Shown here one piece after another: positions 30,967 to 43,136 of a stretch of DNA of 64,000 nucleotides. Under the pieces are notes generated by a model. The model made no database searches, was not told the origin of the DNA, and saw only the letters and a list, made by a program, of their open reading frames with translations. Source of the DNA: a phage; the NCBI GenBank assembly GCA_014685065.1, contig GCA_014685065.1_4092.2. One strand, given 5' to 3'. Every line of letters starts with the position of its first letter. Position 1 is the stretch's first letter. The position numbers and the translations under genes are program-made.

Positions 30967-31188
30967 ATGGCTAATATCACTACTCTTTCCCAGCTTGAAG
31001 CACTGGTTAAATCTATGCGGGCACATGTTGACAGTATCGGCGTAGAAGATCCGGCTGTATGTTTTTGTGACGAAATAAATGATGATACGCTCGTCATTGC
31101 AGAAGTACAAGACGTTTCTAACTATTCATCGCGTTACACTTGCGGAGTATCAAAGAAAGGTGATTTCTGTTTATATCTTACTAAGTAA
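30967..31188 (+). CDS. hypothetical protein
   Basis: ORF track; SD AAGGAG. Confidence 0.6.
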   Translation: MANITTLSQLEALVKSMRAHVDSIGVEDPAVCFCDEINDDTLVIAEVQDVSNYSSRYTCGVSKKGDFCLYLTK

Positions 31189-31356
31189 TACAGAGGGGAT
31201 CAATTGATCCCCTTTATATTTTTTGTACTGAATCATTTAATAGACGGATCTATGCACCCTGTGGGTTAGTGACTATCTCGTCTTTATGTAAGTATTATGC
31301 CAGTACTGGATGCAGTTGTCAAGACTTTTTTTTCAAATACTTTTATATCAAAGTAC

Positions 31357-31384
31357 TTGATAATAGTTTTTAAATGCGTATAAT
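31357..31384 (+). promoter_or_regulatory. sigma70-like promoter TTGATA-N16-TATAAT
   Basis: read directly. Confidence 0.5.
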
Positions 31385-31434
31385 GTTTTACATCTAATCG
31401 GGAATACTCCCTAGTACTAACAAAGGATATACAA

Positions 31435-31734
31435 ATGAAAACTGCAATCATCGCCCTGGCTTTATCTGTTTCCTCTTTCGCTGTTAACGCTTCCGTTGAT
31501 GTACCGAAAGAAAAATTCATTCAGTGCACTGTTGCAATGACTAACGAGGAAACGGCTGAGATCGTTACCAAATCCCTGGAACTGGCCCCTGCAATGTTTG
31601 CTAATGGCCCGTACCATGAAGAAGATGATCAGGGTAGCACGACCATCTATTACGATGCAAAAAGTAAACGCGGTTCTGTCACTGTAATGGATACAGAGAA
31701 AGTTACATTCACTGGCGTAATTAATTGTTTATAA
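31435..31734 (+). CDS. secreted/periplasmic protein (N-terminal signal peptide)
   Basis: MKTAIIALALSVSSFAVNASVD signal-like N-terminus. Confidence 0.6.
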   Translation: MKTAIIALALSVSSFAVNASVDVPKEKFIQCTVAMTNEETAEIVTKSLELAPAMFANGPYHEEDDQGSTTIYYDAKSKRGSVTVMDTEKVTFTGVINCL

Positions 31735-31751
31735 TATAGTACTGAATCACT

Positions 31752-31779
31752 AGCCCACTATAAGCAGTGGGCTTTTTTG
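31752..31779 (+). terminator. intrinsic terminator AGCCCACT-N6-AGTGGGCT + T6
   Basis: read directly. Confidence 0.7.
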
Positions 31780-31832
31780 TTTTTGTAGTATTGTAGTACT
31801 GGTATACTTTGAAAATAGTTTTAAAAAAGTAG

Positions 31833-31860
31833 TTGACATTACCAGGGAAAAGCGTAGAAT
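31833..31860 (+). promoter_or_regulatory. sigma70-like promoter TTGACA-N16-TAGAAT with ~110-nt leader
   Basis: read directly. Confidence 0.5.
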
Positions 31861-31974
31861 GTATTACATCAAGACGGGGAACATTAAGTAGACCGCCAGT
31901 AAGTCGAATGAAAAACTGGACACGTCAATAAAACTTTGATAAACTAACTTAAACTTTAATTGAGGATTTATAAA

Positions 31975-32457
31975 ATGGCTAATGTAAAATCATTTCTGAA
32001 AGCACTGATTTCTAACGATACTGTTATTGCTGCTGAATTGCTGGCTGACCTGGATAATGATACCATGAAAGCAGTACGCAACAATTTTAACATTGCTTAC
32101 AGTGAAGCGAAAGAACTACAAGCCAAAAAGGTAGCAGAACTGGAAGAACAGAAAAAAGCCCGTGAAGCAGAACTGCAAGCAACAATAGAAAGTATTCAGG
32201 CGGCGGTGTCTGGTTTAGATCTGGAAGTGGTTATTGAAATGGCACATAAAGCCCTGGCGGTTAAGTACGGTGAAGATAAGCCGGAATCTAAGCCTAAAAA
32301 ATGGATTCAAGAACGTGTTACGGTTGTCCTTGATAACGGGGAAGAACATTTGATTCCTGTACGCGGTAACTGCATTGCGGTAGTACTAGATGCAATCAAA
32401 GAAAGCGGTATGACTCGCGAGGAATGGATCGAAGCTCACCGCAAAGTTGAAGCATAA
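31975..32457 (+). CDS. hypothetical protein (alanine/glutamate-rich, likely helical)
   Basis: ATG at 31975 after SD GAGGA. Confidence 0.6.
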   Translation: MANVKSFLKALISNDTVIAAELLADLDNDTMKAVRNNFNIAYSEAKELQAKKVAELEEQKKAREAELQATIESIQAAVSGLDLEVVIEMAHKALAVKYGEDKPESKPKKWIQERVTVVLDNGEEHLIPVRGNCIAVVLDAIKESGMTREEWIEAHRKVEA

Positions 32458-32478
32458 CAATTAAAGTACTGAATCACT

Positions 32479-32505
32479 AGCCCACTTATACAGTGGGCTT
32501 TTTTG
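32479..32505 (+). terminator. intrinsic terminator AGCCCACT-N6-AGTGGGCT + T-run
   Basis: read directly. Confidence 0.7.
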
Positions 32506-32657
32506 TGTCTATAGTATTCCATGCCGTCAGCACCTCATAGAATCGATTCTAACGCATTAAACTGATTATCTGATGCATCGCCCTAGCTGGTGGAGTTAAG
32601 GCCGTTAGAATGCGATTGAGAGTGTTAAAAGTATTTTACAAAAAGTAATAAAAAGTA

Positions 32658-32685
32658 CTTGCACGATTCAGAGATTAGCGTATAA
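32658..32685 (+). promoter_or_regulatory. sigma70-like promoter TTGCAC-N16-TATAAT
   Basis: read directly. Confidence 0.5.
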
Positions 32686-32731
32686 TGTTTTACATCAAGG
32701 CGAAACACCTTAACTAACTGAGGATATAAAG

Positions 32732-32884
32732 ATGAATACTTATGAACTGGATTGTTTCACTATGCAAGTAATGTTAGTATGCAGTAAAAAAGAATGGTCA
32801 TCAAAGGAATTTAAAGCAGTTATTGCATGTTCAAAAAAAGGTAAGTCTATTATTGAAACGGCAGCTATCGTAGATAGTCTTTAA
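32732..32884 (+). CDS. small hypothetical protein (50 aa)
   Basis: hand-translated; SD GAGGA. Confidence 0.4.
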   Translation: MNTYELDCFTMQVMLVCSKKEWSSKEFKAVIACSKKGKSIIETAAIVDSL

Positions 32885-32892
32885 AAAATAGT

Positions 32893-32921
32893 TTGACAAT
32901 AGTTTTAAGTACTGACATAAT
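32893..32921 (+). promoter_or_regulatory. sigma70-like promoter TTGACA-N17-CATAAT
   Basis: read directly. Confidence 0.5.
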
Positions 32922-32954
32922 ACATACATCAACTACTGAATAGGAATCAAAACA

Positions 32955-33182
32955 ATGGCTATCGTAATCACTCGCGTATCTGGTACTACTGGCAATTCTT
33001 CTACTGTTGCTGTAATTACTAATAAGAAAGGTGCGGAATTACATTTTGCAATGAATACCTGGGCGGTGAATGAGTTCGGTCAGTGGGCTAGTGTAGAATA
33101 CATTGAAACCTATCAAGTGCCAACCATTAGCTTAACGGATCTCGGCGTAGATCGTATCTTATGCCTGGATGAATTAAACTAA
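32955..33182 (+). CDS. hypothetical protein
   Basis: ORF track. Confidence 0.55.
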   Translation: MAIVITRVSGTTGNSSTVAVITNKKGAELHFAMNTWAVNEFGQWASVEYIETYQVPTISLTDLGVDRILCLDELN

Positions 33183-33189
33183 AAAGTAC

Positions 33190-33249
33190 TTGCAAAGTAA
33201 ATCGGATAAAGTATAATACATTACATCAAGGGGAGAAATGATTCTCCCC
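33190..33249 (+). promoter_or_regulatory. early promoter cassette + hairpin GGGGAGAAATGATTCTCCCC
   Basis: TTGCAA 33190, TATAAT 33212. Confidence 0.6.
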
Positions 33250-33267
33250 ACTAAGAGGAAACTAAAA

Positions 33268-33411
33268 ATGAAAACTTGTCAATGTGGTAAAAAATCTATC
33301 ACTGGTTTGAAACGGGGCGTTGCTCTTTGTCAGTATCACTATAACGCTCAAGTATGGGGTAAAGAGTGGGCCGACCAGGTGGAAGCAATAAAGAAAGCAA
33401 AAAGTAAGTAA
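33268..33411 (+). CDS. small Cys-rich protein (47 aa; CxCG..C..H zinc-ribbon-like)
   Basis: hand-translated MKTCQCGKK..ALCQYHY; SD AAGAGGAAA. Confidence 0.45.
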   Translation: MKTCQCGKKSITGLKRGVALCQYHYNAQVWGKEWADQVEAIKKAKSK

Positions 33412-33420
33412 AATTATTAT

Positions 33421-33459
33421 CACAGTACTATTGACATAGATTGATAGTACTGGCATAAT
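33421..33459 (+). promoter_or_regulatory. class II promoter: TTGACA-N17-CATAAT with AGTACTAT/ATAGTACT inverted repeat over -35 and spacer
   Basis: read directly. Confidence 0.55.
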
Positions 33460-33492
33460 AGATTTTATCAAGACAACTAAGAGGAAACAAAA

Positions 33493-33705
33493 ATGGCTAT
33501 CATTACAAAAATCAAAGTAAACAATTCACTGGTTAAACTGGAACAAGTGAAAGCGGGTTATAAAGTATCATGGTGCGGAATGTATCGGATGTTCGCAGAT
33601 ATTGACGATGCAATCAAATATTATACTGATACGGTTGCTAACTTTGTTCGTGCTGATGTAGTGATGGCAGTTGCACAACATAAAGCATCAAAGCAAAGTA
33701 AGTAA
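33493..33705 (+). CDS. hypothetical protein
   Basis: ORF track. Confidence 0.55.
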   Translation: MAIITKIKVNNSLVKLEQVKAGYKVSWCGMYRMFADIDDAIKYYTDTVANFVRADVVMAVAQHKASKQSK

Positions 33706-33710
33706 AATTA

Positions 33711-33753
33711 TTATCACAGTACTATTGACATAGTTTGATAGTACTGGCATAAT
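33711..33753 (+). promoter_or_regulatory. class II promoter with AGTACT inverted repeat (near-identical to 33421 copy)
   Basis: TTGACA 33725, CATAAT 33748. Confidence 0.55.
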
Positions 33754-33786
33754 AGATTTTATCAAGACAACTAAGAGGAAATTAAA

Positions 33787-34131
33787 ATGGCTAACATCAA
33801 CACTATCTCAGCACAAAATATCAACCTGTCTTCTGTTGAAGTTGTACATATTGCCGCTCGGCGTTGGTTCCAGGCTTCATATGGTAACACTTATTTCTCT
33901 TTAAGTGTAGACGTAGAAATTGATGGTAATTTTATTGAAGTAGTAAACGTGCCGTTCCAATATGGATACGGGGATCACTTTGACACTGTAGCAATGGAAG
34001 AATTTAGCAAGGTTATTAATATGGAAGATAAAGAGTTTTTACGCGGTTCTTATCTTTCCCGTTTTTGCCGTGACAATAATATCACTGTTTACAGTTCGGT
34101 AACTGATGTTAAACGCAAAAAAGATCTTTAA
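33787..34131 (+). CDS. hypothetical protein
   Basis: ORF track. Confidence 0.6.
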   Translation: MANINTISAQNINLSSVEVVHIAARRWFQASYGNTYFSLSVDVEIDGNFIEVVNVPFQYGYGDHFDTVAMEEFSKVINMEDKEFLRGSYLSRFCRDNNITVYSSVTDVKRKKDL

Positions 34132-34211
34132 TTAGCTTTACTTTATGCAGATACTTTGATATAGTGTCTGCATAGGGGAAAGAAATTAAATCAAATTAAG
34201 AGGATAGTAAA

Positions 34212-34481
34212 ATGAAAAATATCAGTACTTTAATCGATGCAGGTACTCATGTTCGTCGGTCAATGGTTGCAACCAGTACTACAAAACAAGTAGCAAGCGG
34301 TTATCTTGTATTTGTACACGAAGGAAAGCTATTGGAACGTTCAATCAATTTTGATGTTAAAAACAATTGCCGTTTTATTATTTTTAAGCGTGAACAATAT
34401 AAAATTGATTTGCCAGCAAAGCCCATTAGCGGGGCGTACAACGTGCAATCATTGTTTGAGCGTCAACCATACACCTATTAA
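34212..34481 (+). CDS. hypothetical protein
   Basis: ORF track; SD AAGAGGA. Confidence 0.55.
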   Translation: MKNISTLIDAGTHVRRSMVATSTTKQVASGYLVFVHEGKLLERSINFDVKNNCRFIIFKREQYKIDLPAKPISGAYNVQSLFERQPYTY

Positions 34482-34532
34482 TCAAAACATCGTTAGCGGT
34501 CGATTTAGGCCGCTTATATTGGGGATTATACC

Positions 34533-34703
34533 ATGAACGTTAATCAAGTACTGAATGAAGTTGAAAGCATCATTAAACCAATGAAACGTATTGATGCTGT
34601 TCCTACACCGGAAGAATGCCGCCTTTATGAGCGTTACAGTGTGGAACAAGCCCAGGAAATGGCCCGTATCCGTCCGGTTGCCAGTACTGATAAGGCGGCG
34701 TAA
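34533..34703 (+). CDS. small hypothetical protein (56 aa)
   Basis: hand-translated; SD-like GGGGA. Confidence 0.4.
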   Translation: MNVNQVLNEVESIIKPMKRIDAVPTPEECRLYERYSVEQAQEMARIRPVASTDKAA

Positions 34704-34704
34704 T

Positions 34705-34911
34705 ATGCTTACTGTACAGGATAAGATCGACATCTTAAAGGTTAATATGTATGTGATTGATGCAGATCCTGAAAAAGTATTTGCATACGATGATTCTAAT
34801 CGTAGTCCTTTTTATTGTAGTCATGTAGTTGGATACGTGCCGTTAGCGTATGTTATCGAAAGAGTGGTTGATTCAGCTTATAAACATTACTTAGAAAGTA
34901 CTTGCAATTAG
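34705..34911 (+). CDS. hypothetical protein
   Basis: ATG one nt after previous stop. Confidence 0.45.
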   Translation: MLTVQDKIDILKVNMYVIDADPEKVFAYDDSNRSPFYCSHVVGYVPLAYVIERVVDSAYKHYLESTCN

Positions 34912-34961
34912 TTTTCAGTACTGTATAATTGTTTACATAGAGGGGGGGAATGGTTCTCCCC
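34902..34961 (+). promoter_or_regulatory. early promoter cassette + hairpin
   Basis: TTGCAA 34902, TATAAT 34924, GGGGGGGAATGGTTCTCCCC. Confidence 0.6.
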
Positions 34962-34979
34962 GATACTAGGAGAAACAAA

Positions 34980-35132
34980 ATGAAACAATATAACGCTCGG
35001 TTTGATGTTACTATCGGTAACGGGAAAGGTCAGTACTCTTTCAGTACTCGTAAAAGTTATACAGAAAACTTCCTGCGTAATTGTGCACTGACCGCCGCAC
35101 AAATTAAACATTACTTTCAGGCTAAAAAATGA
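34980..35132 (+). CDS. small hypothetical protein (50 aa)
   Basis: ATG after SD AGGAG. Confidence 0.45.
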   Translation: MKQYNARFDVTIGNGKGQYSFSTRKSYTENFLRNCALTAAQIKHYFQAKK

Positions 35133-35218
35133 AATCATTAGCTTACTATAGTTCGGCCCTGGTCGGTGCAGTACTGGCGGCATTGTTAGTAACCTATCTA
35201 TTCTTTATGGTGATTTAA
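35129..35218 (+). CDS. micro membrane peptide (29 aa)
   Basis: ATGA overlap; single hydrophobic helix; speculative. Confidence 0.3.
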   Translation: MKSLAYYSSALVGAVLAALLVTYLFFMVI

Positions 35219-35356
35219 ATGAATCCAAATAATATTATCTATCCTAACGCTAAAACGAAAGCAGATAAGGTAAACGCAAAAAAAGCGAAAGTAAAGCAGT
35301 ACATCAAGCAAGGCATGACACGCAAAGCGGCATTGCTTAAAGCTAAAAATAAATGA
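35219..35356 (+). CDS. small basic protein (45 aa)
   Basis: hand-translated; Lys-rich. Confidence 0.3.
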   Translation: MNPNNIIYPNAKTKADKVNAKKAKVKQYIKQGMTRKAALLKAKNK

Positions 35357-35362
35357 AAAAAG

Positions 35363-35394
35363 TGGTTGACTTCGGTCAGCCATTTTGCTATTAT
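35363..35394 (+). terminator. terminator/promoter dual element, copy 4 (variant)
   Basis: TGGTTGACTTCGGTCAGCCA + TTTTG + TATTAT. Confidence 0.55.
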
Positions 35395-35498
35395 ATATTC
35401 ATTGAGAGATAGCTCACTAGCCCACAGGGTGCAGGAATGTATCTATTGTATAATGATTGAGTACTGAAAACTATTTTAAAGTATTTGATAAAAAGTAC

Positions 35499-35557
35499 TT
35501 GCAAACTATCTCAATAAGCGTATAATGTTTTACATCGCAAGGGGAAACGGTTTCCCC
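35499..35557 (+). promoter_or_regulatory. early promoter cassette + hairpin GGGGAAACGGTTTCCCC
   Basis: TTGCAA 35499, TATAAT 35521. Confidence 0.6.
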
Positions 35558-35577
35558 TGGTAATAAGGAAACGAATC

Positions 35578-35919
35578 ATGACTATTGCAATTGCTCAATC
35601 TAACTTTGAAAACGAAATCATCGCTCAGGCACTGCGTTTAAATGATGGTCGGGCCGAAATCAATTACGGTTTCAATAGTGGTGGATGTGAAAAATATCAG
35701 TACTTTGTAACGGCTGATGGCTGTGTCCTGGGTATCAATACAGTTATTGTAAACATTCAGAAAATTAATTTCAATGATCCAGACGATAGCCAGTTTTACA
35801 TCACGGGCGTAGACGTGAACTACGAAGATGATTCCTTAACTGATGATTACACTGGCGAGAAGTTAGAAAGTGCATACGGTGAGGATGATTATCAGTCCGG
35901 TCCAGAAGATTTTGAATAA
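35578..35919 (+). CDS. hypothetical acidic protein
   Basis: ORF track. Confidence 0.6.
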   Translation: MTIAIAQSNFENEIIAQALRLNDGRAEINYGFNSGGCEKYQYFVTADGCVLGINTVIVNIQKINFNDPDDSQFYITGVDVNYEDDSLTDDYTGEKLESAYGEDDYQSGPEDFE

Positions 35920-35933
35920 TATTAAAAAATAGT

Positions 35934-35992
35934 TTGACAATAGTTTCCAGTACTGTATAATTAATTACATCAAGGGGAGAATAGTTCTCCCC
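35934..35992 (+). promoter_or_regulatory. early promoter cassette + hairpin GGGGAGAATAGTTCTCCCC
   Basis: TTGACA 35934, TATAAT 35956. Confidence 0.65.
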
Positions 35993-36014
35993 ACTAACAG
36001 AGAGAGAAAACAAA

Positions 36015-36197
36015 ATGGCTGAATTAATCGCTCGGAATACAATTGCAGGCGTTGAAGATGTAACATTATCATATGATTCAGATAAACAAGTTTACGTCAT
36101 TCGTTATGGTCTGATTGGTGTTAACGTTGATTCAATTGACGAAGCCTTTGAAAAATACTTTGAATTTATCAACCTGGCTTATGATGATTATCGTTAA
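36015..36197 (+). CDS. hypothetical protein
   Basis: ORF track. Confidence 0.5.
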   Translation: MAELIARNTIAGVEDVTLSYDSDKQVYVIRYGLIGVNVDSIDEAFEKYFEFINLAYDDYR

Positions 36198-36205
36198 AAA
36201 ATAGT

Positions 36206-36264
36206 TTGACAATAGTTTTAAGTACTGTATAATTAATTACATCAAGGGGAGAATAGTTCTCCCC
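36206..36264 (+). promoter_or_regulatory. early promoter cassette + hairpin (near-identical copy of 35934)
   Basis: TTGACA 36206, TATAAT 36228. Confidence 0.65.
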
Positions 36265-36281
36265 ACTAAGAGGAAAACAAA

Positions 36282-36500
36282 ATGGCTAATATCCGCACTG
36301 TACTGAAAAATGCAAAACAAGTTTTATTTTCTGACGATGAATATTTTAATCGCAATATCAAAGGCGTTCGGAACATTGAGGATGTAAAGGAATTATTTGG
36401 AATCAAAGGTAACGTATATCGTAAAGGATTGCACGGTAATCATTTTGAATATAAGTTAGCTGATAGTGATTATAACTTTACACTGACTATCATTAACTAA
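36282..36500 (+). CDS. hypothetical protein
   Basis: ORF track. Confidence 0.55.
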   Translation: MANIRTVLKNAKQVLFSDDEYFNRNIKGVRNIEDVKELFGIKGNVYRKGLHGNHFEYKLADSDYNFTLTIIN

Positions 36501-36510
36501 AAATATTATC

Positions 36511-36548
36511 ACAGTACTATTGACAACTGCCGATAGTACTGGCATAAT
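36511..36548 (+). promoter_or_regulatory. class II promoter with AGTACT inverted repeat
   Basis: TTGACA 36520, CATAAT 36543. Confidence 0.55.
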
Positions 36549-36592
36549 AACTTTTATCAACAGTAGTTAACTTAACCTAAGAGAGAAACATC

Positions 36593-36736
36593 ATGACAGC
36601 ATTAGATTCATTCATCGACGCAGTACTGGCAAAAACTGGCGAGGATCTGACCGCAGAACAATACGCGATGATCGAGCAATGCCAGCAAAACGGTAAATCG
36701 GTGAAAGATACTGTTAAGATTATCCGCAAGATGTAA
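36593..36736 (+). CDS. small hypothetical protein (47 aa)
   Basis: hand-translated; SD AAGAGAGAAA. Confidence 0.4.
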   Translation: MTALDSFIDAVLAKTGEDLTAEQYAMIEQCQQNGKSVKDTVKIIRKM

Positions 36737-36841
36737 GAATATAGCCCACTGGTTAACGCTGGTGGGCTTTAATCATTTACCCTATACAATGCCAGTACTA
36801 AACCGTTTATCTCGTTAGAATGCGTTACAGGACGTTTAACA

Positions 36842-37039
36842 ATGATTAGCATGAAATCAGTACAAAAACAAATTGATACATTATCAAAAATTAAACGTAA
36901 ACAGTACTCCTTAGAATATACAATCAATGGTAACTATCATCTAATGAAAGAAAATAATTTTATAGTCATTGATGAATCATTGCAAATCATTAGTATAGTA
37001 CTGAAAGCATTAATCAATGACAGAAAAAAGTTAAAATAA
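36842..37039 (+). CDS. hypothetical protein
   Basis: ORF track; weak SD. Confidence 0.4.
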   Translation: MISMKSVQKQIDTLSKIKRKQYSLEYTINGNYHLMKENNFIVIDESLQIISIVLKALINDRKKLK

Positions 37040-37370
37040 TCTATTGACAATATTATCCAGTACTGGCATAATACTTACATCAAGACGAGAACGTCACTAA
37101 CCCATAGGGTGCACAAATGTAACTGTATAATATTGATCAAAAAATGATCTGATCAATACTTGATCAATTTGCGTAAAGTAGTATAATTCTATGCAGTTGG
37201 TTAGACGAAAGGTTATGATTAGTAGTGGAAGTGTATAAAAATTTTCATGGTGTGGTGATCCGCACATATGGGGATGAATATGTCGTGTCGTATGGATTGG
37301 AAAAAGTAAGAACAAGTAATATACTTGTCGCGTTACAGTACTATAGTAATTTTATAATGAGGTTAAAATA

Positions 37371-37628
37371 ATGGCTGTAGGATTCACGAAAGATGGGGCC
37401 GAGCAAGACGAGATTAACGCAGTGATTCAGGCCGCTGTTAACCACGCTAGAACGCAAATTAACGCACAAATAGAATCACTGATACATTGCCTCGACTGCG
37501 GCGATAAAATCCCTGAGAATCGCCGCCAGGCAGTTAAGGGGTGTAAGTACTGCATCACTTGCCAGGCTGATCATGATAGCATATTCAAACGCAATCCCCG
37601 TAATTGTTGGCATAGATCTATGAGATAA
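37371..37628 (+). CDS. DksA/TraR-family C4 zinc-finger protein
   Basis: CLDCGDKIPENRRQAVKGCKYCITCQ matches CxxCG..IP..RR.A....CxxCQ. Confidence 0.7.
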   Translation: MAVGFTKDGAEQDEINAVIQAAVNHARTQINAQIESLIHCLDCGDKIPENRRQAVKGCKYCITCQADHDSIFKRNPRNCWHRSMR

Positions 37629-37634
37629 AAAGTA

Positions 37635-37662
37635 TTGACAGTGCTGTTAGTTAGTGTATAAT
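37635..37662 (+). promoter_or_regulatory. sigma70-like promoter TTGACA-N16-TATAAT
   Basis: read directly. Confidence 0.5.
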
Positions 37663-37691
37663 ATTTTATATCTTAACTGAGGATTGAAATC

Positions 37692-38048
37692 ATGGGTATA
37701 CAACATATCACGCGTACTACAGACAATGGTGAGATCACTGGCTATCAAGTACAAGGCAAAGTAGCACAATTGCAGTACTGGTTTGTTAAACGTGGCATTG
37801 TTGCACCAGATCTTGATTATAATCGTGTAGCGTTTATTGATTCTCTTTATGTTGATCCCGATAATCGCGGTAACGGTGAAGGTACTGAATTAATGAATGC
37901 CTTTATTGATGCCGCCGATGATTCAGATTGTATCATCTTAGAATGCGATACGGGAGAAGATAACGCATTTAATCTTAAAGAATGGTATGAAAGTTTTGGT
38001 TTTGAAGTGCTGATGGACTGCGAATATCCTATAATGATTTTATCCTAG
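37692..38048 (+). CDS. possible GNAT-type acetyltransferase
   Basis: motif-A-like YVDPDNRGNGEGTELMNAF (R-x-x-G-x-G); weak. Confidence 0.4.
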   Translation: MGIQHITRTTDNGEITGYQVQGKVAQLQYWFVKRGIVAPDLDYNRVAFIDSLYVDPDNRGNGEGTELMNAFIDAADDSDCIILECDTGEDNAFNLKEWYESFGFEVLMDCEYPIMILS

Positions 38049-38051
38049 TAC

Positions 38052-38110
38052 TTGCAATTAGTTTTAAGTACTGTATAATAGTTTACATGAAGGGGAGAAT
38101 AGTTCTCCCC
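38052..38110 (+). promoter_or_regulatory. early promoter cassette + hairpin
   Basis: TTGCAA 38052, TATAAT 38074, GGGGAGAATAGTTCTCCCC. Confidence 0.65.
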
Positions 38111-38127
38111 ACTACAAGGAAAGACAA

Positions 38128-38316
38128 ATGCAAAACTTATCAAGTATTTTAGTACAAGATGATTTCGGTAATCCTGGAAGTGCTATCATTGTTCGGGGTA
38201 ATAAAGCAACATTTGTTATTGCTGGTGGACCTGTACAGCGTAGCATTAAAAACAATGCAGTTACAATCAATAATGTTCGCTATCGCTTGGATAAAGAATT
38301 GATTCATAAACTGTAA
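38128..38316 (+). CDS. hypothetical protein
   Basis: ORF track. Confidence 0.5.
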   Translation: MQNLSSILVQDDFGNPGSAIIVRGNKATFVIAGGPVQRSIKNNAVTINNVRYRLDKELIHKL

Positions 38317-38343
38317 TATTAATTTAATAGAGGATAAAAATAA

Positions 38344-38667
38344 ATGTATATTCATACTACTATCACAAAAGAAGTTCGTTGTCAATTCGAAAGTATCCCT
38401 GGTGTATGTTTCATTACAGGCACTTTCTCACCTGGTGACCGTGATAATCCAGTACTGTTACAGTTACGCCATCCATTATGGGATAAAGCATTTGATCTGC
38501 CGTTGAATGAATTCGCAACCACTGCTGATAAGTACATTAAAAATATTCGCGAGAATGATTGCCTATTCATTAATGCTTTTAGTGATGCCGCGTTAAGTGA
38601 GATCCATGCTGTATTGGTTGCAATCATGGAATCAATGGAGAAAACTATATTCAAACAAGGTGAATAA
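38344..38667 (+). CDS. hypothetical protein
   Basis: ORF track; SD GAGGA. Confidence 0.55.
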   Translation: MYIHTTITKEVRCQFESIPGVCFITGTFSPGDRDNPVLLQLRHPLWDKAFDLPLNEFATTADKYIKNIRENDCLFINAFSDAALSEIHAVLVAIMESMEKTIFKQGE

Positions 38668-38673
38668 AAACTA

Positions 38674-38733
38674 TTGACAATGTAATCTAGTACTGTATAA
38701 TAGTTTACATGAAGGGGAGAAATGATTCTCCCC
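38674..38733 (+). promoter_or_regulatory. early promoter cassette + hairpin
   Basis: TTGACA 38674, TATAAT 38696. Confidence 0.65.
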
Positions 38734-38750
38734 ACTAAGAGGAAAGAAAC

Positions 38751-38963
38751 ATGCAAGGTCAACTAATCGTTCGTAAATGGTCTGATACTAACGAAAAACC
38801 GTGGGATGTTCAATATATCGGACCGGACGGTGTTTCACGTTATCAACCTGGCGTAACGCATAGTACTGAGCAATATGCCGCCGCTCACCGTGAACGCCTG
38901 TTAGAATCTATGAAACAGGGATTCTGTGAAAAATTCATTCAAGATCATTGGCTGAAAGATTAA
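38751..38963 (+). CDS. hypothetical protein
   Basis: ORF track. Confidence 0.55.
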   Translation: MQGQLIVRKWSDTNEKPWDVQYIGPDGVSRYQPGVTHSTEQYAAAHRERLLESMKQGFCEKFIQDHWLKD

Positions 38964-38980
38964 TAGAAGGAGTACAGCTT

Positions 38981-39073
38981 ATGCAAATGAATCCGATGAT
39001 TGTTGTGTTAGCTGTACTTATGGTCATTCATGCCATCGTAGAAGTACTAACACAATCAGGAGTAATACAATGA
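38981..39073 (+). CDS. micro membrane peptide (30 aa)
   Basis: SD AAGGAG 8 nt upstream; hydrophobic; speculative. Confidence 0.35.
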   Translation: MQMNPMIVVLAVLMVIHAIVEVLTQSGVIQ

Positions 39074-39240
39074 TCCAGGTGGAATTATCAGTACTGAAAG
39101 ATCTGTTTTATCGGTTAGGCACTACTGGCGAATACCCTAAAGGGGATACTGCTAAACTATACATTGCATTGGATGTATGGCAACGTAATGAACTGGCTAA
39201 CGCCTGGCGTAAAGGTAAATCAGAGGGGATTGCAGCATGA
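39070..39240 (+). CDS. small hypothetical protein (56 aa)
   Basis: ATGA overlap; SD AGGAG. Confidence 0.4.
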   Translation: MIQVELSVLKDLFYRLGTTGEYPKGDTAKLYIALDVWQRNELANAWRKGKSEGIAA

Positions 39241-39386
39241 AAGAATTCTTATTCGAAGTAGTGTTCCAGGGCGTAGGAAGTAACCAACTGATTCGATCAA
39301 GTGGTTACAATGTTAACCAGGCATGGAATAACATTAAACAAATGTACCCGAACGCTATCACATATCGCAACCCAAAACAAGTTTAA
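39237..39386 (+). CDS. small hypothetical protein (49 aa)
   Basis: ATGA overlap. Confidence 0.35.
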   Translation: MKEFLFEVVFQGVGSNQLIRSSGYNVNQAWNNIKQMYPNAITYRNPKQV

Positions 39387-39400
39387 AAAGAATTAAAAAA

Positions 39401-39433
39401 GGGATTGACTCCGGTCAGTCCCTTTGCTATTAT
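39401..39433 (+). terminator. terminator/promoter dual element, copy 5 (GGGATTGAC-TCCG-GTCAGTCCC variant)
   Basis: read directly. Confidence 0.55.
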
Positions 39434-39530
39434 ATACGCATAGAAACAAATCAGCCCACAGGGTGCATAAATGTATCTATTATATGCTGGTGGCTAGTAC
39501 TATCAAGTACTGAAAACTATTTTTAAAAAG

Positions 39531-39700
39531 TACTTGCAAAGTATCACGATAAGCGTATAATGTTTTACATCAGGACGGGGAACGAAACAAGTAACTCCCC
39601 GTTAAGTAGTCCAGGAGTAAGACATACGAAAACCTCCCCTGATAAAATAGTTTGACAATACCAAGTAAACGAGTATAATACTTACATCAACCACAAAGAG
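39531..39700 (+). promoter_or_regulatory. second copy of the long tandem-promoter leader module seen at 29204-29349
   Basis: near-identical ~170 bp. Confidence 0.5.
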
Positions 39701-39709
39701 GAATACAAA

Positions 39710-39910
39710 ATGAAACATTTTACTTTCGGTGTAGTAGGCTTTACAGTATCCAGCGGCGTTTATAAATCAGAACGCGGTGCTAAAAATGCAGCAAGTCGGG
39801 CGTATGGTTCACAGCGTGACTTACAGGTCGGTTATATTAGTAACATTAATAACATGTTTATTCCTGTTTCACAGCGTAAAGCGGGTAACATGAAATGGGA
39901 AACAATTTGA
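39710..39910 (+). CDS. hypothetical protein
   Basis: ORF track; SD AAGAGGAA. Confidence 0.55.
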   Translation: MKHFTFGVVGFTVSSGVYKSERGAKNAASRAYGSQRDLQVGYISNINNMFIPVSQRKAGNMKWETI

Positions 39911-39918
39911 TAAAATAG

Positions 39919-39978
39919 TTTGACAATAGTTTTTAGTACTGTATAATAGTTTACATCAAGTGGGGAATAGTTCCCCAC
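39919..39978 (+). promoter_or_regulatory. early promoter cassette + hairpin GTGGGGAATAGTTCCCCAC
   Basis: TTGACA 39919, TATAAT 39942. Confidence 0.65.
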
Positions 39979-39999
39979 CTAACAAAGAGAGAAATTAAA

Positions 40000-40275
40000 A
40001 TGCGGATTCTACTGACAGCTAACGAAATCGAGCAAGTACTGACTACTAACCTGGAAGACTGGAAACGTGATGCAGATATCCAGGCGGTGCAATGGCTCAA
40101 TGATAAGTTAACGCCGGATGATTTAAGTAAGATTGTAGATCCACAATTCTATGAAGATATTCACGACACGGCTTTAAGCGTCGAGGATGTACTTGATAAG
40201 CACTACATTGATATTGATTTGCAGGTTTACGGTCGTAAAAACTTTATCACTATTCACGACATTTATAATAATTAA
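40000..40275 (+). CDS. hypothetical protein
   Basis: ORF track. Confidence 0.55.
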   Translation: MRILLTANEIEQVLTTNLEDWKRDADIQAVQWLNDKLTPDDLSKIVDPQFYEDIHDTALSVEDVLDKHYIDIDLQVYGRKNFITIHDIYNN

Positions 40276-40278
40276 GTA

Positions 40279-40338
40279 TTGACAAAGTATCTTAGTACTG
40301 TATAATAGTTTACATCAAGGCAGGGGAATGGTTCCCCT
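40279..40338 (+). promoter_or_regulatory. early promoter cassette + hairpin
   Basis: TTGACA 40279, TATAAT 40301, AGGGGAATGGTTCCCCT. Confidence 0.65.
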
Positions 40339-40362
40339 CCTAACTAAAAGAGAGAAATTAAA

Positions 40363-40686
40363 ATGACTATGATCCTTACCCAGAAAGTAGAAATGAAAAT
40401 TGTAACTTCCTTTGACATTAAAGTTAATCGGTGGACTGATAGCCACGGCAATACTTACCACTCATGCTACGTGTCTGCATTGATTGGTGACCGCTGGGAA
40501 GACCTGGGACATGAAACCTTTACTTACGGTTACGGTACACAAGGCGAATACACGGGCTTGGAGATCATTAAAGAAACTGTAATAGGTTTCAACCCGAAAG
40601 AGAAAGTACTACACAGAATTGAGGATGAGATCAACAAAGAAATTACAGTTCGTTACTACGATGTAAAACGTAAGAAAGACATGTAA
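40363..40686 (+). CDS. hypothetical protein
   Basis: ORF track. Confidence 0.55.
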   Translation: MTMILTQKVEMKIVTSFDIKVNRWTDSHGNTYHSCYVSALIGDRWEDLGHETFTYGYGTQGEYTGLEIIKETVIGFNPKEKVLHRIEDEINKEITVRYYDVKRKKDM

Positions 40687-40700
40687 TAGAATCCATTTAA

Positions 40701-40737
40701 AGTACTATTTGACATTGCCCAGATAGTACTTTATAAT
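40701..40737 (+). promoter_or_regulatory. class II promoter with AGTACT inverted repeat
   Basis: TTGACA 40709, N17, TATAAT 40732. Confidence 0.55.
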
Positions 40738-40785
40738 AGACTCTAACTTGTAGTACTAATTAACTTAACTAATAGGATGTACACC

Positions 40786-41181
40786 ATGATTACTAAATTC
40801 TTCGCTACCCGTGAACAAGCTCGCATCGTTGCTCGTGAAGAAGGTGAAACATTTAAAGACATGGGCAAAGATGCACCGAAAGGACAACGCTGGGCGGTAC
40901 AGTTCAAAGAGATCTCTGATATTGTGAATTCACCTGAGCCTGTACTTACTGAAGCAGAACTGAAGAAAGCTCAAGAACTGGCTGAAGTACTGAACGCTCA
41001 AGATGACTTCTTGGAAGGTTCTGATATTGAAGTTACAGTTAACGCAAATGCATGGACTCACGCGGATCACCTGGCAAACCTTAAGCGTCCAAGTGAACTG
41101 ATTCGTAACCAGAAAGAGATCCGTCATGACCGTAAAGGAAACCGTGTAACAGTATACAGTAAACGCCGCCAGGTTATCTAA
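40786..41181 (+). CDS. hypothetical protein, paralog of 28815..29081
   Basis: shared N- and C-terminal motifs. Confidence 0.55.
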   Translation: MITKFFATREQARIVAREEGETFKDMGKDAPKGQRWAVQFKEISDIVNSPEPVLTEAELKKAQELAEVLNAQDDFLEGSDIEVTVNANAWTHADHLANLKRPSELIRNQKEIRHDRKGNRVTVYSKRRQVI

Positions 41182-41204
41182 TAACTTTGCAGTACTAACA
41201 ACAC

Positions 41205-41229
41205 GGCGGGAATAGTTCCCGCCTTTTTT
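41205..41229 (+). terminator. intrinsic terminator: hairpin GGCGGGAATAGTTCCCGCC (same family as 5' hairpins) + T6
   Basis: read directly. Confidence 0.65.
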
Positions 41230-41244
41230 ATAGGATAAACTAAA

Positions 41245-41499
41245 ATGATGAAGGTACAACTATCTAAAGATAATATCTTGCGGGTACACTATAAAGCACC
41301 ACAGAGAATCATCACAAAGGCCGTACAGCTTGCTAATGAGTTTATTAATGGTAGTCTATTACCCAGGAAGTTAAGCAACGGGAAACTACGTGTTATCGAT
41401 GTAGACACTAACAATAGAATAGTAATTGAGAGTACTGGAAAAATTAATCTATATGAACACCAACAATACAATAAAAAAATAAAACTAATATCACGTTGA
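41245..41499 (+). CDS. hypothetical protein
   Basis: ORF track. Confidence 0.5.
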   Translation: MMKVQLSKDNILRVHYKAPQRIITKAVQLANEFINGSLLPRKLSNGKLRVIDVDTNNRIVIESTGKINLYEHQQYNKKIKLISR

Positions 41500-41555
41500 C
41501 AGTACTCAATTGTTTTAGTATTATGTATCTATACCAACACAGAGAGAGAAACAAA

Positions 41556-41774
41556 ATGAAATTATCTAAAATCGAAAAGAAAACTATTGATGAAGCAGTG
41601 AAGCACGGTTATACCTTTCGTAATGATTCACACTTCACCAGTTTTCAACAGGGAAACCGTACCATCAAAAAACTCATTGATAAAGGTTTACTCACTAAGG
41701 TTGATAACGGGAACGGTGTAGAATATCAACCGACAGAAGACGCATTATCACTAAAGAAATATTCTATTATCTAA
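41556..41774 (+). CDS. hypothetical protein
   Basis: ATG at 41556 after a TTGACAGTACTCAAWTGTTTTAGTA leader repeat. Confidence 0.5.
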   Translation: MKLSKIEKKTIDEAVKHGYTFRNDSHFTSFQQGNRTIKKLIDKGLLTKVDNGNGVEYQPTEDALSLKKYSII

Positions 41775-41831
41775 TTGACAGTACTCAAATGTTTTAGTAC
41801 TATGTACGCATACCAACACGGGGAAAACAAA

Positions 41832-42074
41832 ATGATTACTTTAGAAAAACGTATCAAAGAGACTACAACGCTGGTGGAACTGTTAACCGTTCTTAAATGC
41901 CGGGTAACTCCATTCAGTACACCGGACTTTATCAACATGGTGGACGTTAACGGTCGCTATCGTATTGCGGTCGAACAAGGTACGGCAAAAGTATTCAGTA
42001 CTAAAAATACGCGTGAAGTATTCCACGCAGTAAGTACGAAAAAAGTAGTTGCCATTGATAGTAAAGTACTGTAA
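41832..42074 (+). CDS. hypothetical protein
   Basis: ATG at 41832; same upstream repeat as 41556 gene. Confidence 0.5.
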   Translation: MITLEKRIKETTTLVELLTVLKCRVTPFSTPDFINMVDVNGRYRIAVEQGTAKVFSTKNTREVFHAVSTKKVVAIDSKVL

Positions 42075-42105
42075 TATAGTTTCATTAACTCAAGGAGTCA
42101 ACACA

Positions 42106-42690
42106 ATGCGTAACTATACTAAATTCATCCGTTCACTTCATGCAATGGAAACCAACAAAGAGATCCTTTCAGCTTGTCGGTTAGCTGGACTGGAGATCGT
42201 CGGTGCGGGTTCTTCCCGTATTGTATTCGCTTTAAATGATCGGTTAGTGATTAAGGTCGCGAATTGTGATGCGGGTGTAGAACAAAATGAAACTGAATGT
42301 AAGGTATGGAATTTTTTAGATTATGACCGTCCGCACCTTAAACAGTTCTTTGCCAAGGTGCATATGCATTTATGCGATCCTGATAATCTGTTTATTGTTA
42401 TGGATCGTTTGAGTACTGCAAGCAAAGGCAGTGTAAAGCACGTAACCGCATGTAATGAGTTAAAGTACAATATTAAACGTAACACTATTGAACGCCATCA
42501 CCATTTCGCTGATGCTCTCAATCACGTTGATGATACATTATCCACACTAACGATAAGAGATATCAGAAAACAGAATATCGGCCAGGATCGCAACGGCTTG
42601 ATTAAAGTACTTGATTACGGTTTAACCCGCAATATCTGGAATCAGTACTATAAAAAACGTGATGTTAACGCGATAACTATAACACGATAA
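42106..42690 (+). CDS. protein-kinase-like protein
   Basis: Gly loop VGAGSSRIV, VIKVA lysine, RDIRKQNIG catalytic-loop-like, VLDYG DFG-like. Confidence 0.45.
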   Translation: MRNYTKFIRSLHAMETNKEILSACRLAGLEIVGAGSSRIVFALNDRLVIKVANCDAGVEQNETECKVWNFLDYDRPHLKQFFAKVHMHLCDPDNLFIVMDRLSTASKGSVKHVTACNELKYNIKRNTIERHHHFADALNHVDDTLSTLTIRDIRKQNIGQDRNGLIKVLDYGLTRNIWNQYYKKRDVNAITITR

Positions 42691-42704
42691 AAAAGATTAA
42701 AAAA

Positions 42705-42737
42705 GGGATTGACTCCAGTCAGTCCCTTTGCTATTAT
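42705..42737 (+). terminator. terminator/promoter dual element, copy 6
   Basis: GGGATTGAC-TCCA-GTCAGTCCC + TATTAT. Confidence 0.55.
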
Positions 42738-42831
42738 ATATTCATTGAGAGATAACTCACTGACCCATAGGGTGCGGAAGTGTATCTATTATATAAGTAT
42801 TCAGTACTGAAAACTATTTGATAAAAAGTAC

Positions 42832-42891
42832 TTGCAAACTATCTTAATGAGCGTATAATGTTTTATATCGAGAGGGGGAAATGGTTCTCCC
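42832..42891 (+). promoter_or_regulatory. early promoter cassette + hairpin
   Basis: TTGCAA 42832, TATAAT 42854. Confidence 0.6.
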
Positions 42892-42914
42892 TGGTACTAA
42901 AAGGAATCAAAACG

Positions 42915-43136
42915 ATGGCTACTATGACCTGCGTTCACGCTTCAAATCTTCTGAATGATGCAGCATTTAAAGCAGGTGAAGAATATCAATGCTATCGGGA
43001 TGAAAATAAAAAAGTTTTCGTCGTTGATGCTAACGGTTTCCATATTGAATTGCAATCCGGCTTCACTGGTTTAAATGGTAAATCAGTATGGGGCGTTAAT
43101 GATGATAATGGTCTTTATCACTTTATCCGTAATTAA
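42915..43136 (+). CDS. hypothetical protein
   Basis: ATG after SD AAAGGAA. Confidence 0.55.
   Translation: MATMTCVHASNLLNDAAFKAGEEYQCYRDENKKVFVVDANGFHIELQSGFTGLNGKSVWGVNDDNGLYHFIRN

What the first reader, a model, noticed from the sequence alone, without database searches (positions are those of the whole stretch)
33421..40737. Second promoter class with an AGTACTAT/ATAGTACT inverted repeat over the -35 and spacer
At 33421, 33711, 36511 and 40701 (with related copies near 28741 and 44330) the promoter reads AGTACTATTGACA-N8-ATAGTACT-N2-CATAAT. A perfect 8-bp inverted repeat is centred on the spacer, as expected for an operator overlapping a promoter. Two of the copies are duplicated together with the 3' end of the upstream gene (..KAKSK stop).
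Basis: partly seen in the sequence, partly recalled or inferred. Interest (0 to 1): 0.5.

Follow-up and report, generated by a model that had tools for sequence, protein, structure and literature searches.

The report
Early promoter cassette built from AGTACT boxes
The inverted repeat is real and sits on strong host-type early promoters of a giant E. coli phage, but its arms are two copies of AGTACT, a six-letter palindrome that this phage group carries about eleven times more often than chance across its genome, so it is not a private switch of one promoter class.

Summary
The motif AGTACTA-TTGACA-N7-ATAGTACT-NN-(C/T)ATAAT occurs at 33424, 33718, 36513 and 44337. There is a +2 bp variant at 40701 and a short variant at 28747. 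Shuffled sequence gives none.

The window comes from a 121Q/G17-type jumbo coliphage (Asteriusvirus). The sites lie in its early region of small genes. They are near-consensus sigma-70 promoters with a 17-bp spacer and mostly a TGn extended -10. The same architecture occurs in Klebsiella phage RaK2.

- **AGTACT is genome-wide.** It occurs 248 times in 64 kb against 21.6 expected, in coding DNA in all three frames and in terminator stems. Sites are conserved beyond background. The excess is confined to the RaK2/121Q/GAP32 clade.
- **AGTACT is not specific to this promoter class.** 20 of 27 early promoters carry it at fixed positions.
- **The repeat is part of a larger palindrome.** The 8-bp arms are the core of a ~59-bp imperfect palindrome with A- and T-tracts. 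The unit behaves as a mobile cassette flanking different ORFs in related phages, like T4 PeSLs.

An operator role is plausible but unproven, and no AGTACT-binding protein was identified. I found no published report of the AGTACT excess.

The parts
33409..33467 (+). Class-C cassette copy 1, a ~59-bp imperfect palindrome. AGTACT boxes at 33424-33429 and 33446-33451. -35 TTGACA at 33431-33436, TGG extended -10 plus CATAAT at 33454-33459. Drives ORF 33493-33705.
33703..33761 (+). Class-C cassette copy 2, a tandem duplicate of copy 1 (101/121 identical including the flanking codons). Boxes at 33718 and 33740. -35 at 33725-33730, -10 CATAAT at 33748-33753. Drives ORF 33787-34131.
36498..36556 (+). 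Class-C cassette copy 3. Boxes at 36513 and 36535. -35 at 36520-36525, -10 CATAAT at 36543-36548. Drives ORF 36593-36736. In 121Q and TH47 this locus has two cassette copies flanking an extra, unrelated ORF.
40691..40744 (+). Variant cassette. AGTACTAT-TTGACA-N8-ATAGTACT-T-TATAAT, boxes 24 bp apart, 12/12 consensus promoter at 40709-40737. Drives ORF 40777-41181.
44327..44378 (+). Class-C cassette with a weak -10 (TGTGAT at 44367-44372; TGTAAT in TH47 and SP27). Boxes at 44337 and 44359. Upstream of ORF 44400-44657.
28737..28785 (+). Short variant. AGTACTAT-N9-ATAGTACT-T-TATAAT, boxes 19 bp apart, no properly spaced -35. Upstream of ORF 28815-29081.
26000..46400 (+). Early region: an array of small + strand ORFs, each with its own sigma-70-type promoter. 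12 promoters score a perfect 12/12. 20 of 27 gene-proximal promoters carry AGTACT starting at -20/-19, -39 or -43/-42.
1..64000 (.). Genome-wide AGTACT excess: 248 copies against 21.6 expected. Extended consensus T-n-C-AGTACT-G-n-A. 2.85 per kb in coding DNA and 8.3 per kb in non-coding DNA.

Best explanation
The element is a mobile early-gene regulatory cassette of a RaK2/121Q-type jumbo phage. It is a strong promoter for the host sigma-70 RNA polymerase: TTGACA, 17 bp, then TGn-CATAAT or TATAAT. The promoter is built inside a ~59-bp imperfect palindrome.

The core arms of the palindrome are two copies of AGTACT. This clade keeps that palindromic hexamer at about 4 per kb throughout its genome under purifying selection. 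The two boxes lie at about -42..-37, abutting the -35 hexamer, and at -20..-15, overlapping the T of the extended -10.

**Most likely mechanism (inferred).** AGTACT is the recognition site of a clade-specific, sequence-specific reader, either a DNA-binding protein or a modification enzyme. At early promoters an occupied box would clash with sigma region 4 or region 3 and turn the promoter down. A two-box cassette would then be the most sensitive arrangement. In read-through RNA the same palindrome folds into a -13 to -18 kcal/mol hairpin followed by a U-tract. That would insulate the cassette from the upstream gene, as a composite terminator/promoter does.

**Shown:** promoter likeness, conservation across genera, the extended palindrome, cassette mobility, and the genome-wide excess of and selection on AGTACT.

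For: **Promoter**
- The sites match the sigma-70 consensus at 11-12 of 12 positions with a 17-bp spacer. TG precedes the non-consensus -10 elements. They lie directly upstream of a ribosome-binding site and ATG.

**Conservation**
- The same 28-bp core is present in 121Q, TH47, SP27, two RaK2 copies with TATAAT, and 8 metagenomic contigs.
- GAP32 has the analogue AGTACTTTGACA-N10-AGTACTTTATAAT.

**Palindrome**
- 24 pairs are 88.7% paired, against 28-57% when the partner is slid. There is one compensatory UA/AU pair and invariant wobble pairs. RNA fold z-scores are -4.1 to -6.5.

**Mobility**
- Window, 121Q and TH47 carry 0, 1 and 1 different ORFs between cassette copies at one locus.
- The 500-bp segment with both 33.4-33.7 kb copies is absent from TH47.

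**AGTACT excess and selection**
- 248 copies against 21.6 expected. One-mismatch neighbours are near expectation.
- The flanks are symmetric.
- Coding DNA holds 140 copies, against 47.5 after synonymous-codon shuffling and 22 after codon-order shuffling.
- 81% of sites are conserved against TH47, compared with 58.5% of all hexamers.
- The excess is present in every relative with at least 62% tail-sheath identity and essentially absent beyond that.
- E. coli K-12 has 3 copies in a 50-kb sample.

**Positions in promoters**
- AGTACT starts cluster at -20/-19 (13 sites), -39 (7) and -43/-42 (4).
Against: - No reader is identified. None of 107 proteins encoded at 22-64 kb has a recognisable DNA-binding domain other than a DksA/TraR zinc finger.
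- The genome-wide pressure for AGTACT could by itself place boxes in the only promoter positions that tolerate them, namely the spacer and the region upstream of -35. Shared ancestry of duplicated cassettes could explain the positional clustering. A regulatory role at promoters is therefore not required by the data.
- The hairpin stem is AU-rich, with 3 G-C pairs and a 2x2 internal loop, so it is a poor intrinsic terminator by the usual criteria. The simple terminator scan does not call it.
- The core arms never vary, so they give no covariation evidence.
- There are no expression or binding data for this phage group.
Confidence: 0.45

Rival explanations
1. Passenger boxes. AGTACT serves a global, non-transcriptional function, such as a modification target, genome marking, or a signal for replication or recombination, in the manner of the cyanobacterial HIP1 palindrome. 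Its copies in promoters merely occupy tolerated positions. On this reading the inverted repeat has no operator function, and the class is defined only by common descent of a duplicated cassette.
For: - The excess is almost as strong inside ORFs, in all three frames. AGTACT is also used for terminator stems at 9393, 16099 and 26889.
- Non-coding density is only about 3 times the coding density.
- Box spacing is variable.
- The cassettes are clearly duplicated modules.
- HIP1 shows the same combination of over-representation and conservation without a gene-level role (PMC5861425).
Against: - In class C the arms (C)AGTACTAT and (G)ATAGTACT(G) are invariant across genera, while the bases between them vary.
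- AGTACT starts in promoters are confined to a few positions rather than spread over the free spacer.
Confidence: 0.3
2. The repeat works mainly as a nucleic-acid hairpin. It would act as a terminator, an RNase III-type processing site or a 3' stabiliser for the upstream gene's transcript, or as a supercoil-dependent cruciform. This hairpin overlaps the next gene's promoter, making a composite terminator/promoter of the PeSL kind. AGTACT is used simply because it is self-complementary and abundant.
For: - The palindrome extends over 24 pairs, including the complement of the -10 region. It has a compensatory change and conserved G-U wobbles, which pair only in RNA. An A-tract and a T-tract flank it.
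- The same window has unambiguous terminator-embedded promoters, AAAGGGATTGACTCCGGTCAGTCCCTTTGCTATTAT.
- PeSLs are defined as composite terminator/promoter motifs (PMC4122927).
Against: - The stem is AU-rich with an internal loop next to the U-tract.
- Single AGTACT boxes occupy the same promoter positions in classes that cannot form the hairpin.
- The outer arms are A/T-rich on both sides, so part of the complementarity is expected by composition.
Confidence: 0.2
3. The boxes are sites for a host factor of Enterobacterales. The nucleoid-occlusion protein SlmA is the obvious candidate, because its site GTGAGTACTCAC has AGTACT at its centre. The phage would exploit that factor.
For: - The excess is seen in phages of Escherichia, Klebsiella and Cronobacter but not in Pseudomonas phage PA5oct.
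- The SlmA site contains AGTACT (PMC3020112).
Against: - SlmA needs G1, T2 and a purine at position 3. The phage sites prefer T at -3 and C at -1, and G at -1 is depleted.
- There are 0 full SlmA-type sites, and only 8 of 496 half-site flanks fit.
Confidence: 0.05

Closest known systems
PeSL (promoter-early stem-loop) mobile regulatory cassettes of T4-type phages (Arbiol et al. 2010, PMC2839356; Comeau et al. 2014, PMC4122927)
   Same: - Short repeated units that combine a sigma-70 early promoter with a stem-loop.
- They lie between small ORFs of unknown function in plastic regions.
- Close relatives differ by ORFs inserted or replaced between two copies. Here window, 121Q and TH47 differ this way at 36.5 kb, and window and TH47 differ at 33.3-33.8 kb.
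   Different: - The phage lineage is different (RaK2/121Q jumbo phages).
- No sequence relationship to T4 PeSLs was tested.
- Here the promoter lies inside the stem-loop rather than beside it.
- The stem is made of a hexamer that is hyper-abundant genome-wide.
HIP1 (GCGATCGC), the highly iterated palindrome of cyanobacteria (PMC5861425, PMC4390886)
   Same: - A short palindrome over-represented more than 10-fold in both coding and non-coding DNA.
- Sites are conserved between genomes beyond background.
- The excess is clade-specific.
- The function is unresolved.
   Different: - A hexamer in a virus rather than an octamer in a cellular genome.
- It sits at fixed positions in early promoters.
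- No associated methyltransferase has been shown here.
- A strand-polar variant island exists.
Dispersed phage repressor sites: mycobacteriophage L5 stoperators, P1 C1 operators, phiC31 conserved inverted repeats (from my own knowledge, not checked here)
   Same: One short site repeated at many promoters and elsewhere in a phage genome, overlapping core promoter elements.
   Different: - Those systems have tens of sites per genome and a known repressor.
- Extrapolating 3.9 per kb to about 350 kb gives over a thousand sites here, most of them inside genes.
- The phage is strictly lytic, and no binder is known.
Classical operators overlapping sigma-70 promoters (lambda OR/OL, LexA boxes)
   Same: Palindromic boxes overlap the -35 edge and the spacer/extended -10. 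Two boxes lie about two helical turns apart.
   Different: The box is only 6-12 bp. Its spacing is not fixed. It is not restricted to regulated promoters.

Membership tests
Sigma-70 (host RNA polymerase) promoter | -35 TTGACA and -10 TATAAT hexamers 16-18 bp apart, upstream of a gene | tested here: met
   Scores are 11/12 at 33431, 33725 and 36520 with TG before the -10, and 12/12 at 40709. Each lies 30-45 bp upstream of an ATG with a ribosome-binding site. The 44337 and 28747 copies are weaker.
Sigma-70 (host RNA polymerase) promoter | Mapped transcription start and dependence on host holoenzyme | not testable with these tools
   No transcriptome of an Asteriusvirus or Alcyoneusvirus phage was found.
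Repressor operator | Palindromic site overlapping core promoter elements | tested here: met
   The boxes lie at -42..-37 and -20..-15. The downstream box supplies T-15 of the extended -10.
Repressor operator | A cognate sequence-specific DNA-binding protein | tested here: inconclusive
   Pfam scan of 107 window proteins found no helix-turn-helix or similar domain. It found only a DksA/TraR zinc finger, a GNAT acetyltransferase, a ParE-like domain and domains of unknown function. The rest of the ~350-kb genome was not examined.
Repressor operator | Sites confined to the regulated promoters | tested here: not met
   There are 248 AGTACT in 64 kb, 148 of them fully inside ORFs. The site is present in most promoter classes.
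PeSL-type mobile promoter/stem-loop cassette | Early promoter combined with a stem-loop in one short repeated unit | tested here: met
   Folding gives -13 to -18 kcal/mol with z-scores of -4.1 to -6.5. The 24-pair palindrome is 88.7% paired across 16 distinct sequences.
PeSL-type mobile promoter/stem-loop cassette | Copies flank variable ORFs, and indel end-points between close relatives fall in the cassettes | tested here: met
PeSL-type mobile promoter/stem-loop cassette | Sequence homology to T4-type PeSLs, or membership of the T4-like phages | not tested
   The phage is Asteriusvirus. No PeSL sequences were compared.
HIP1-like hyper-abundant palindrome | Over-representation of at least 10-fold in both coding and non-coding DNA | tested here: met
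   11.5-fold overall, 8-fold in coding and 24-fold in non-coding DNA. Coding count is 3-fold above the synonymous-shuffle expectation.
HIP1-like hyper-abundant palindrome | Sites conserved between genomes beyond background | tested here: met
   61 of 75 sites conserved, against 58.5% of all hexamers at 88% identity.
HIP1-like hyper-abundant palindrome | Associated orphan methyltransferase acting on the motif | not tested
   Relatives encode methyltransferases of unknown specificity.
SlmA-binding site | G1, T2 and purine 3 flanking AGTACT (GTGAGTACTCAC) | tested here: not met
Intrinsic terminator | G+C-rich stem directly followed by a U-tract | tested here: inconclusive
   A U-tract (ATTTTAT) follows the stem. 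The stem has only 3 G-C pairs and an internal loop, and the scan does not call it.

The most novel reading that the evidence does not exclude
AGTACT, read strand by strand as AGTAC(T/A), is a self-marking code of the RaK2/121Q/GAP32 clade. A phage-encoded reader would use the roughly 65-fold higher site density on phage DNA to tell phage DNA from host DNA. It would couple this to early-promoter shut-off and to a strand-reading process such as replication priming, recombination or protection from a nuclease.

A 7.6-kb island supports a strand-specific reader rather than a simple dimeric repressor. In that island every site is AGTACA on one strand and GTACT is completely absent. This would be a new kind of genome-wide signal in a virus.
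Probability: 0.2. Interest if true: 0.85.

Novelty: new variant of a known kind. Interest (0 to 1): 0.6.

Why it matters
How jumbo phages without a nucleus-like shell or their own RNA polymerase organise and time expression of hundreds of genes is poorly understood.

This window shows two things.
- **Modular early region.** It is assembled from a few types of swappable promoter cassettes. This explains how unknown small genes are exchanged between relatives.
- **A pervasive hexamer.** The whole clade maintains one palindromic hexamer at over a thousand copies per genome, at a cost to codon choice and even to protein sequence.

A signal that pervasive must be read by something important. It offers a direct experimental handle through oligonucleotide pull-down, methylation calling at AGTACT, or ScaI digestion. 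It is also a simple sequence signature for recognising this clade in metagenomes.

Tried and rejected
- **Literal N8 pattern.** No hits. The spacing had to be corrected to N7.
- **tRNA and Rfam scans of the window.** Nothing found.
- **SlmA site.** Rejected on the flanking bases.
- **Repair-driven origin (VSP-like).** The one-mismatch neighbours of AGTACT are not depleted. AGTACA and TGTACT are in fact enriched. The sites are also conserved.
- **Helical periodicity of site spacing.** There are peaks at 11, 20, 22 and 24 bp, which come from the promoter families and hairpins. No periodicity appears beyond that.
- **Assembly or base-calling artefact for the AGTACT-free regions.** Rejected, because the independent genome SP27 shows the same pattern.
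- **Replication origin between the two AGTACT-free regions.** No iterons were found, only paralogous gene repeats. The idea is neither supported nor excluded.
- **Polar island in GAP32 (20-37 kb).** Absent.
- **Search for a DNA-binding protein in the window.** None found.
- **Metagenome scan with a 16-base half-pattern.** Most hits were chance. Only 8 loci carried the full element.
- **Literature.** No mention of AGTACT in the RaK2, CBB or Sharanji papers, nor in any paper containing AGTACT together with 'jumbo' and 'phage'.
- **Practical loss.** Several fetched loci never reached the scripting sandbox, so TH47 50-100 kb could not be analysed by script.

Full report
**What the window is.** Megablast places it in the 121Q/PBECO4/G17 group of jumbo coliphages (Asteriusvirus). 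Identity is 95% to 121Q over 33-42 kb and 99% to G17 and Sharanji over 1-20 kb. The stretch from 26 to 46 kb is an array of small + strand ORFs of unknown function, each with its own promoter. In records that start at the physical end of the genome, this array lies 8-17 kb from the left end, next to the terminal repeat. That fits early genes read by the host polymerase.

**The observation.** AGTACTAT/ATAGTACT pairs are present at 33424/33444, 33718/33738, 36513/36533, 40701/40723, 44337/44357 and 28747/28764.
- With the gap freed there are five matches, against none in 100 shuffles.
- The -35 is TTGACA. Its first T is the last base of AGTACTAT.
- Seven variable bases, ATAGTACT and two more bases make a 17-bp spacer.
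- In three copies the -10 is CATAAT, preceded by TGG. The last T of the downstream AGTACT is therefore T-15 of an extended -10.
- The 40701 copy is a perfect 12/12 promoter.
- The 44337 copy has only TGTGAT as its -10, and 28747 has no properly spaced -35.
- The copies at 33424 and 33718 share a ~100-bp block. It runs from the last three codons of the upstream gene to the third codon of the downstream gene. The gene bodies are unrelated.

**The arms are copies of a genome-wide hexamer.** AGTACT occurs 248 times in the window against 21.6 expected. It is by far the most over-represented hexamer, and the 8-mer excess follows from it.
- One-mismatch variants are near expectation, except AGTACA and TGTACT.
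- The flanks are symmetric even without symmetrising: T at -3 and C at -1, G at +1 and A at +3. This indicates recognition of double-stranded DNA over about 12 bp.
- Density is 8.3 per kb in non-coding DNA and 2.85 per kb in ORFs, in all three frames.
- Within ORFs there are 140 copies. Shuffling synonymous codons within genes gives 47.5 ± 5.9, and shuffling codon order gives 22. Both codon choice and amino-acid order are therefore bent toward the motif.
- Against TH47 (88% identity), 61 of 75 sites are intact, compared with 58.5% of all hexamers. The result is similar in coding and non-coding DNA.
- A 50-kb sample of E. coli K-12 has 3 copies.

**Phylogenetic spread.** The excess is present in several relatives:
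- Klebsiella phage RaK2: 119 copies in 50 kb against 16.9 expected.
- Cronobacter phage GAP32: 253 copies in 50 kb.
- Every IMG/VR relative whose tail sheath is at least 62% identical to RaK2's: 39-56 copies per 22.6 kb of late-gene DNA.

It is absent from Pseudomonas phage PA5oct (0 in 15 kb). It is absent or weak in relatives at 31-47% sheath identity, with one exception. I found no report of this excess.

**AGTACT in promoters generally.** The early region contains 12 perfect sigma-70 consensus promoters in 20 kb and many 10-11/12 ones. They fall into a few repeated architectures:
- TTGACA-N9-AGTACTgTATAAT.
- AAAAAGTACTTGCAA-N16-TATAAT.
- Both boxes together.
- TTGACAGTACT-N10-TAGTAYTAT.
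- Promoters embedded in a terminator hairpin, AAAGGGATTGACTCCGGTCAGTCCCTTTGCTATTAT, which have no box.

Of 27 gene-proximal promoters, 20 carry AGTACT. Its start is at -20/-19 in 13 cases, at -39 in 7 and at -43/-42 in 4. GAP32 and RaK2 use the same designs.

**What is special about the class.** Three things set it apart.
- *It is conserved across genera as a unit.* RaK2 has two copies with TATAAT, and eight metagenomic contigs carry it. In an alignment of 20 copies, C-AGTACTATTGACA and G-ATAGTACT are invariant, while the bases between them vary.
- *The inverted repeat is much longer than 8 bp.* The left flank (TAAAATTATTAT) complements the -10 region and the T-tract after it. This gives a 24-pair imperfect palindrome. 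It is 88.7% paired over 16 distinct sequences, against 28-57% when the partner is slid. It has a compensatory UA/AU pair and two invariant wobble pairs next to the core. As RNA it folds at -13 to -18 kcal/mol, with z-scores of -4.1 to -6.5.
- *It behaves as a mobile cassette.* After the gene ending TLTIIN*, the window has one copy. 121Q and TH47 each have two copies enclosing an extra ORF, and the two extra ORFs are unrelated. The 500 bp holding both 33.4-33.7 kb copies and two ORFs is missing in TH47. This is the pattern described for PeSLs of T4-type phages (PMC2839356, PMC4122927).

**Mechanism.**
- *Firm:* these are sigma-70-type early promoters packaged in a mobile palindromic cassette, and AGTACT is a selected, clade-wide signal.
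- *Inferred:* AGTACT is read by a protein, and at -42..-37 and -20..-15 its occupancy would compete with sigma regions 4 and 3.

The variable box spacing (19, 22, 24 and 31 bp) argues for independent boxes rather than one bipartite operator. The hairpin with A/T tracts suggests an added role in ending or processing the upstream transcript. The main rival reading is that the boxes are passengers of the genome-wide pressure. That pressure also puts AGTACT into terminator stems (9393, 16099, 26889) and into codons. I cannot exclude this reading, and I weight it at 0.3. SlmA, whose site has AGTACT at its centre, is excluded by the flanking bases. No DNA-binding protein is recognisable among 107 proteins of the window.

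**An unexplained extra.** Two stretches lack AGTACT altogether.
- At 53.2-60.9 kb there are about 43 AGTACA on the + strand in all frames. There is no TGTACT and not a single GTACT.
- At 46.3-50.9 kb the + strand has no AGTAC but 9 TGTACT. Part of these lie in a conserved Ala-Val-Leu motif of a paralogous ORF array.

The same pattern is found in the independent genome SP27, so it is real sequence. It is not present at 20-37 kb of GAP32. No origin-like repeats lie between the two stretches. A strictly strand-polar variant suggests that whatever reads the motif can read one strand at a time.

**Verdict.** The promoter reading is supported. The reading of a class-specific operator is only partly supported. 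The more interesting result is the AGTACT system itself and the cassette organisation of the early region.

Noticed in passing
window 53236-60815: This is a strand-polar island. It has about 43 AGTACA on the + strand in all three frames and in intergenic DNA. It has no AGTACT, no TGTACT and no GTACT at all. Phage SP27 shows the same pattern. GAP32 does not show it at 20-37 kb.
   Followed up: partly
window 46315-50902: This stretch is free of AGTACT. It consists of a tight array of overlapping ~70-aa ORFs. AGTAC is absent from the sense strand. There are 9 TGTACT, several of them in a conserved GCTGTACTG (Ala-Val-Leu) motif of the paralogues.
   Followed up: partly
window 26100-28030: A 1.9-kb stretch without ORFs, tRNA genes or Rfam matches carries 17 AGTACT, mostly as AGTACTGA. 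It lies next to the strand switch and close to where other records place the genome end. It also contains a 12/12 promoter at 26731.
   Followed up: partly
window 3010-3045, 4290-4325, 5705-5740, 35359-35394, 39398-39433, 42702-42737, 44963-44998: Seven copies of a terminator hairpin whose stem contains a -35 hexamer (AAAGGGATTGACTCCGGTCAGTCCCTTT). It is followed by GCTATTAT, making a literal composite terminator/promoter without AGTACT.
   Followed up: partly
window 28-45 kb, e.g. 33220-33262, 35962-36000, 38080-38120: Most early promoters are followed by a conserved leader, ttacatcaa-GGGGAGAAnnnTTCTCCCC-actaagagg. This is a 5' UTR stem-loop just before the ribosome-binding site. The class with the inverted repeat lacks it.
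   Followed up: no
window 26500-46400: There are twelve perfect 12/12 sigma-70 consensus promoters (TTGACA-16/17-TATAAT) in 20 kb.
   Followed up: yes
whole window: Several G+C-containing palindromic hexamers are absent: AGCGCT, AGGCCT, CAGCTG, CCATGG and CGATCG each occur 0 times against about 6.4 expected. This looks like restriction-site avoidance, in contrast to the excess of the ScaI site AGTACT.
   Followed up: no
window 36470-36600; L001 8800-9200; L010 3620-4080: This is a gene-cassette polymorphism. The window has no ORF between repeated promoter cassettes at this locus. 121Q has a 60-aa ORF there, and TH47 has an unrelated ORF of about 86 aa.
   Followed up: yes
window 9393-9408, 16099-16111, 26888-26921: Pairs of AGTACT form the stems of terminator-like hairpins between genes, for example GCCAGTACTGAGTACTGGC with flanking A- and T-runs.
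   Followed up: partly
window 22-64 kb proteins: Pfam finds a DksA/TraR zinc-finger protein (37371-37628), a GNAT acetyltransferase (37692-38048), a ParE-like toxin domain, weak protein-kinase matches and several DUFs. The owners of all but the zinc-finger and GNAT matches were not located.
   Followed up: no
L029 (IMG/VR contig 3300027985_000659): This distant relative has only 38% tail-sheath identity to RaK2 yet carries 18 AGTACT in 13 kb. Other relatives at 31-47% identity have 0-13 per 7-23 kb.
   Followed up: no
window 10000-22200, - strand: An array of ~380-430-aa paralogous genes lies on the opposite strand. Related records annotate them as RCC1 / 'regulator of chromosome condensation' repeat proteins. 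AGTACT is enriched here too.
   Followed up: no
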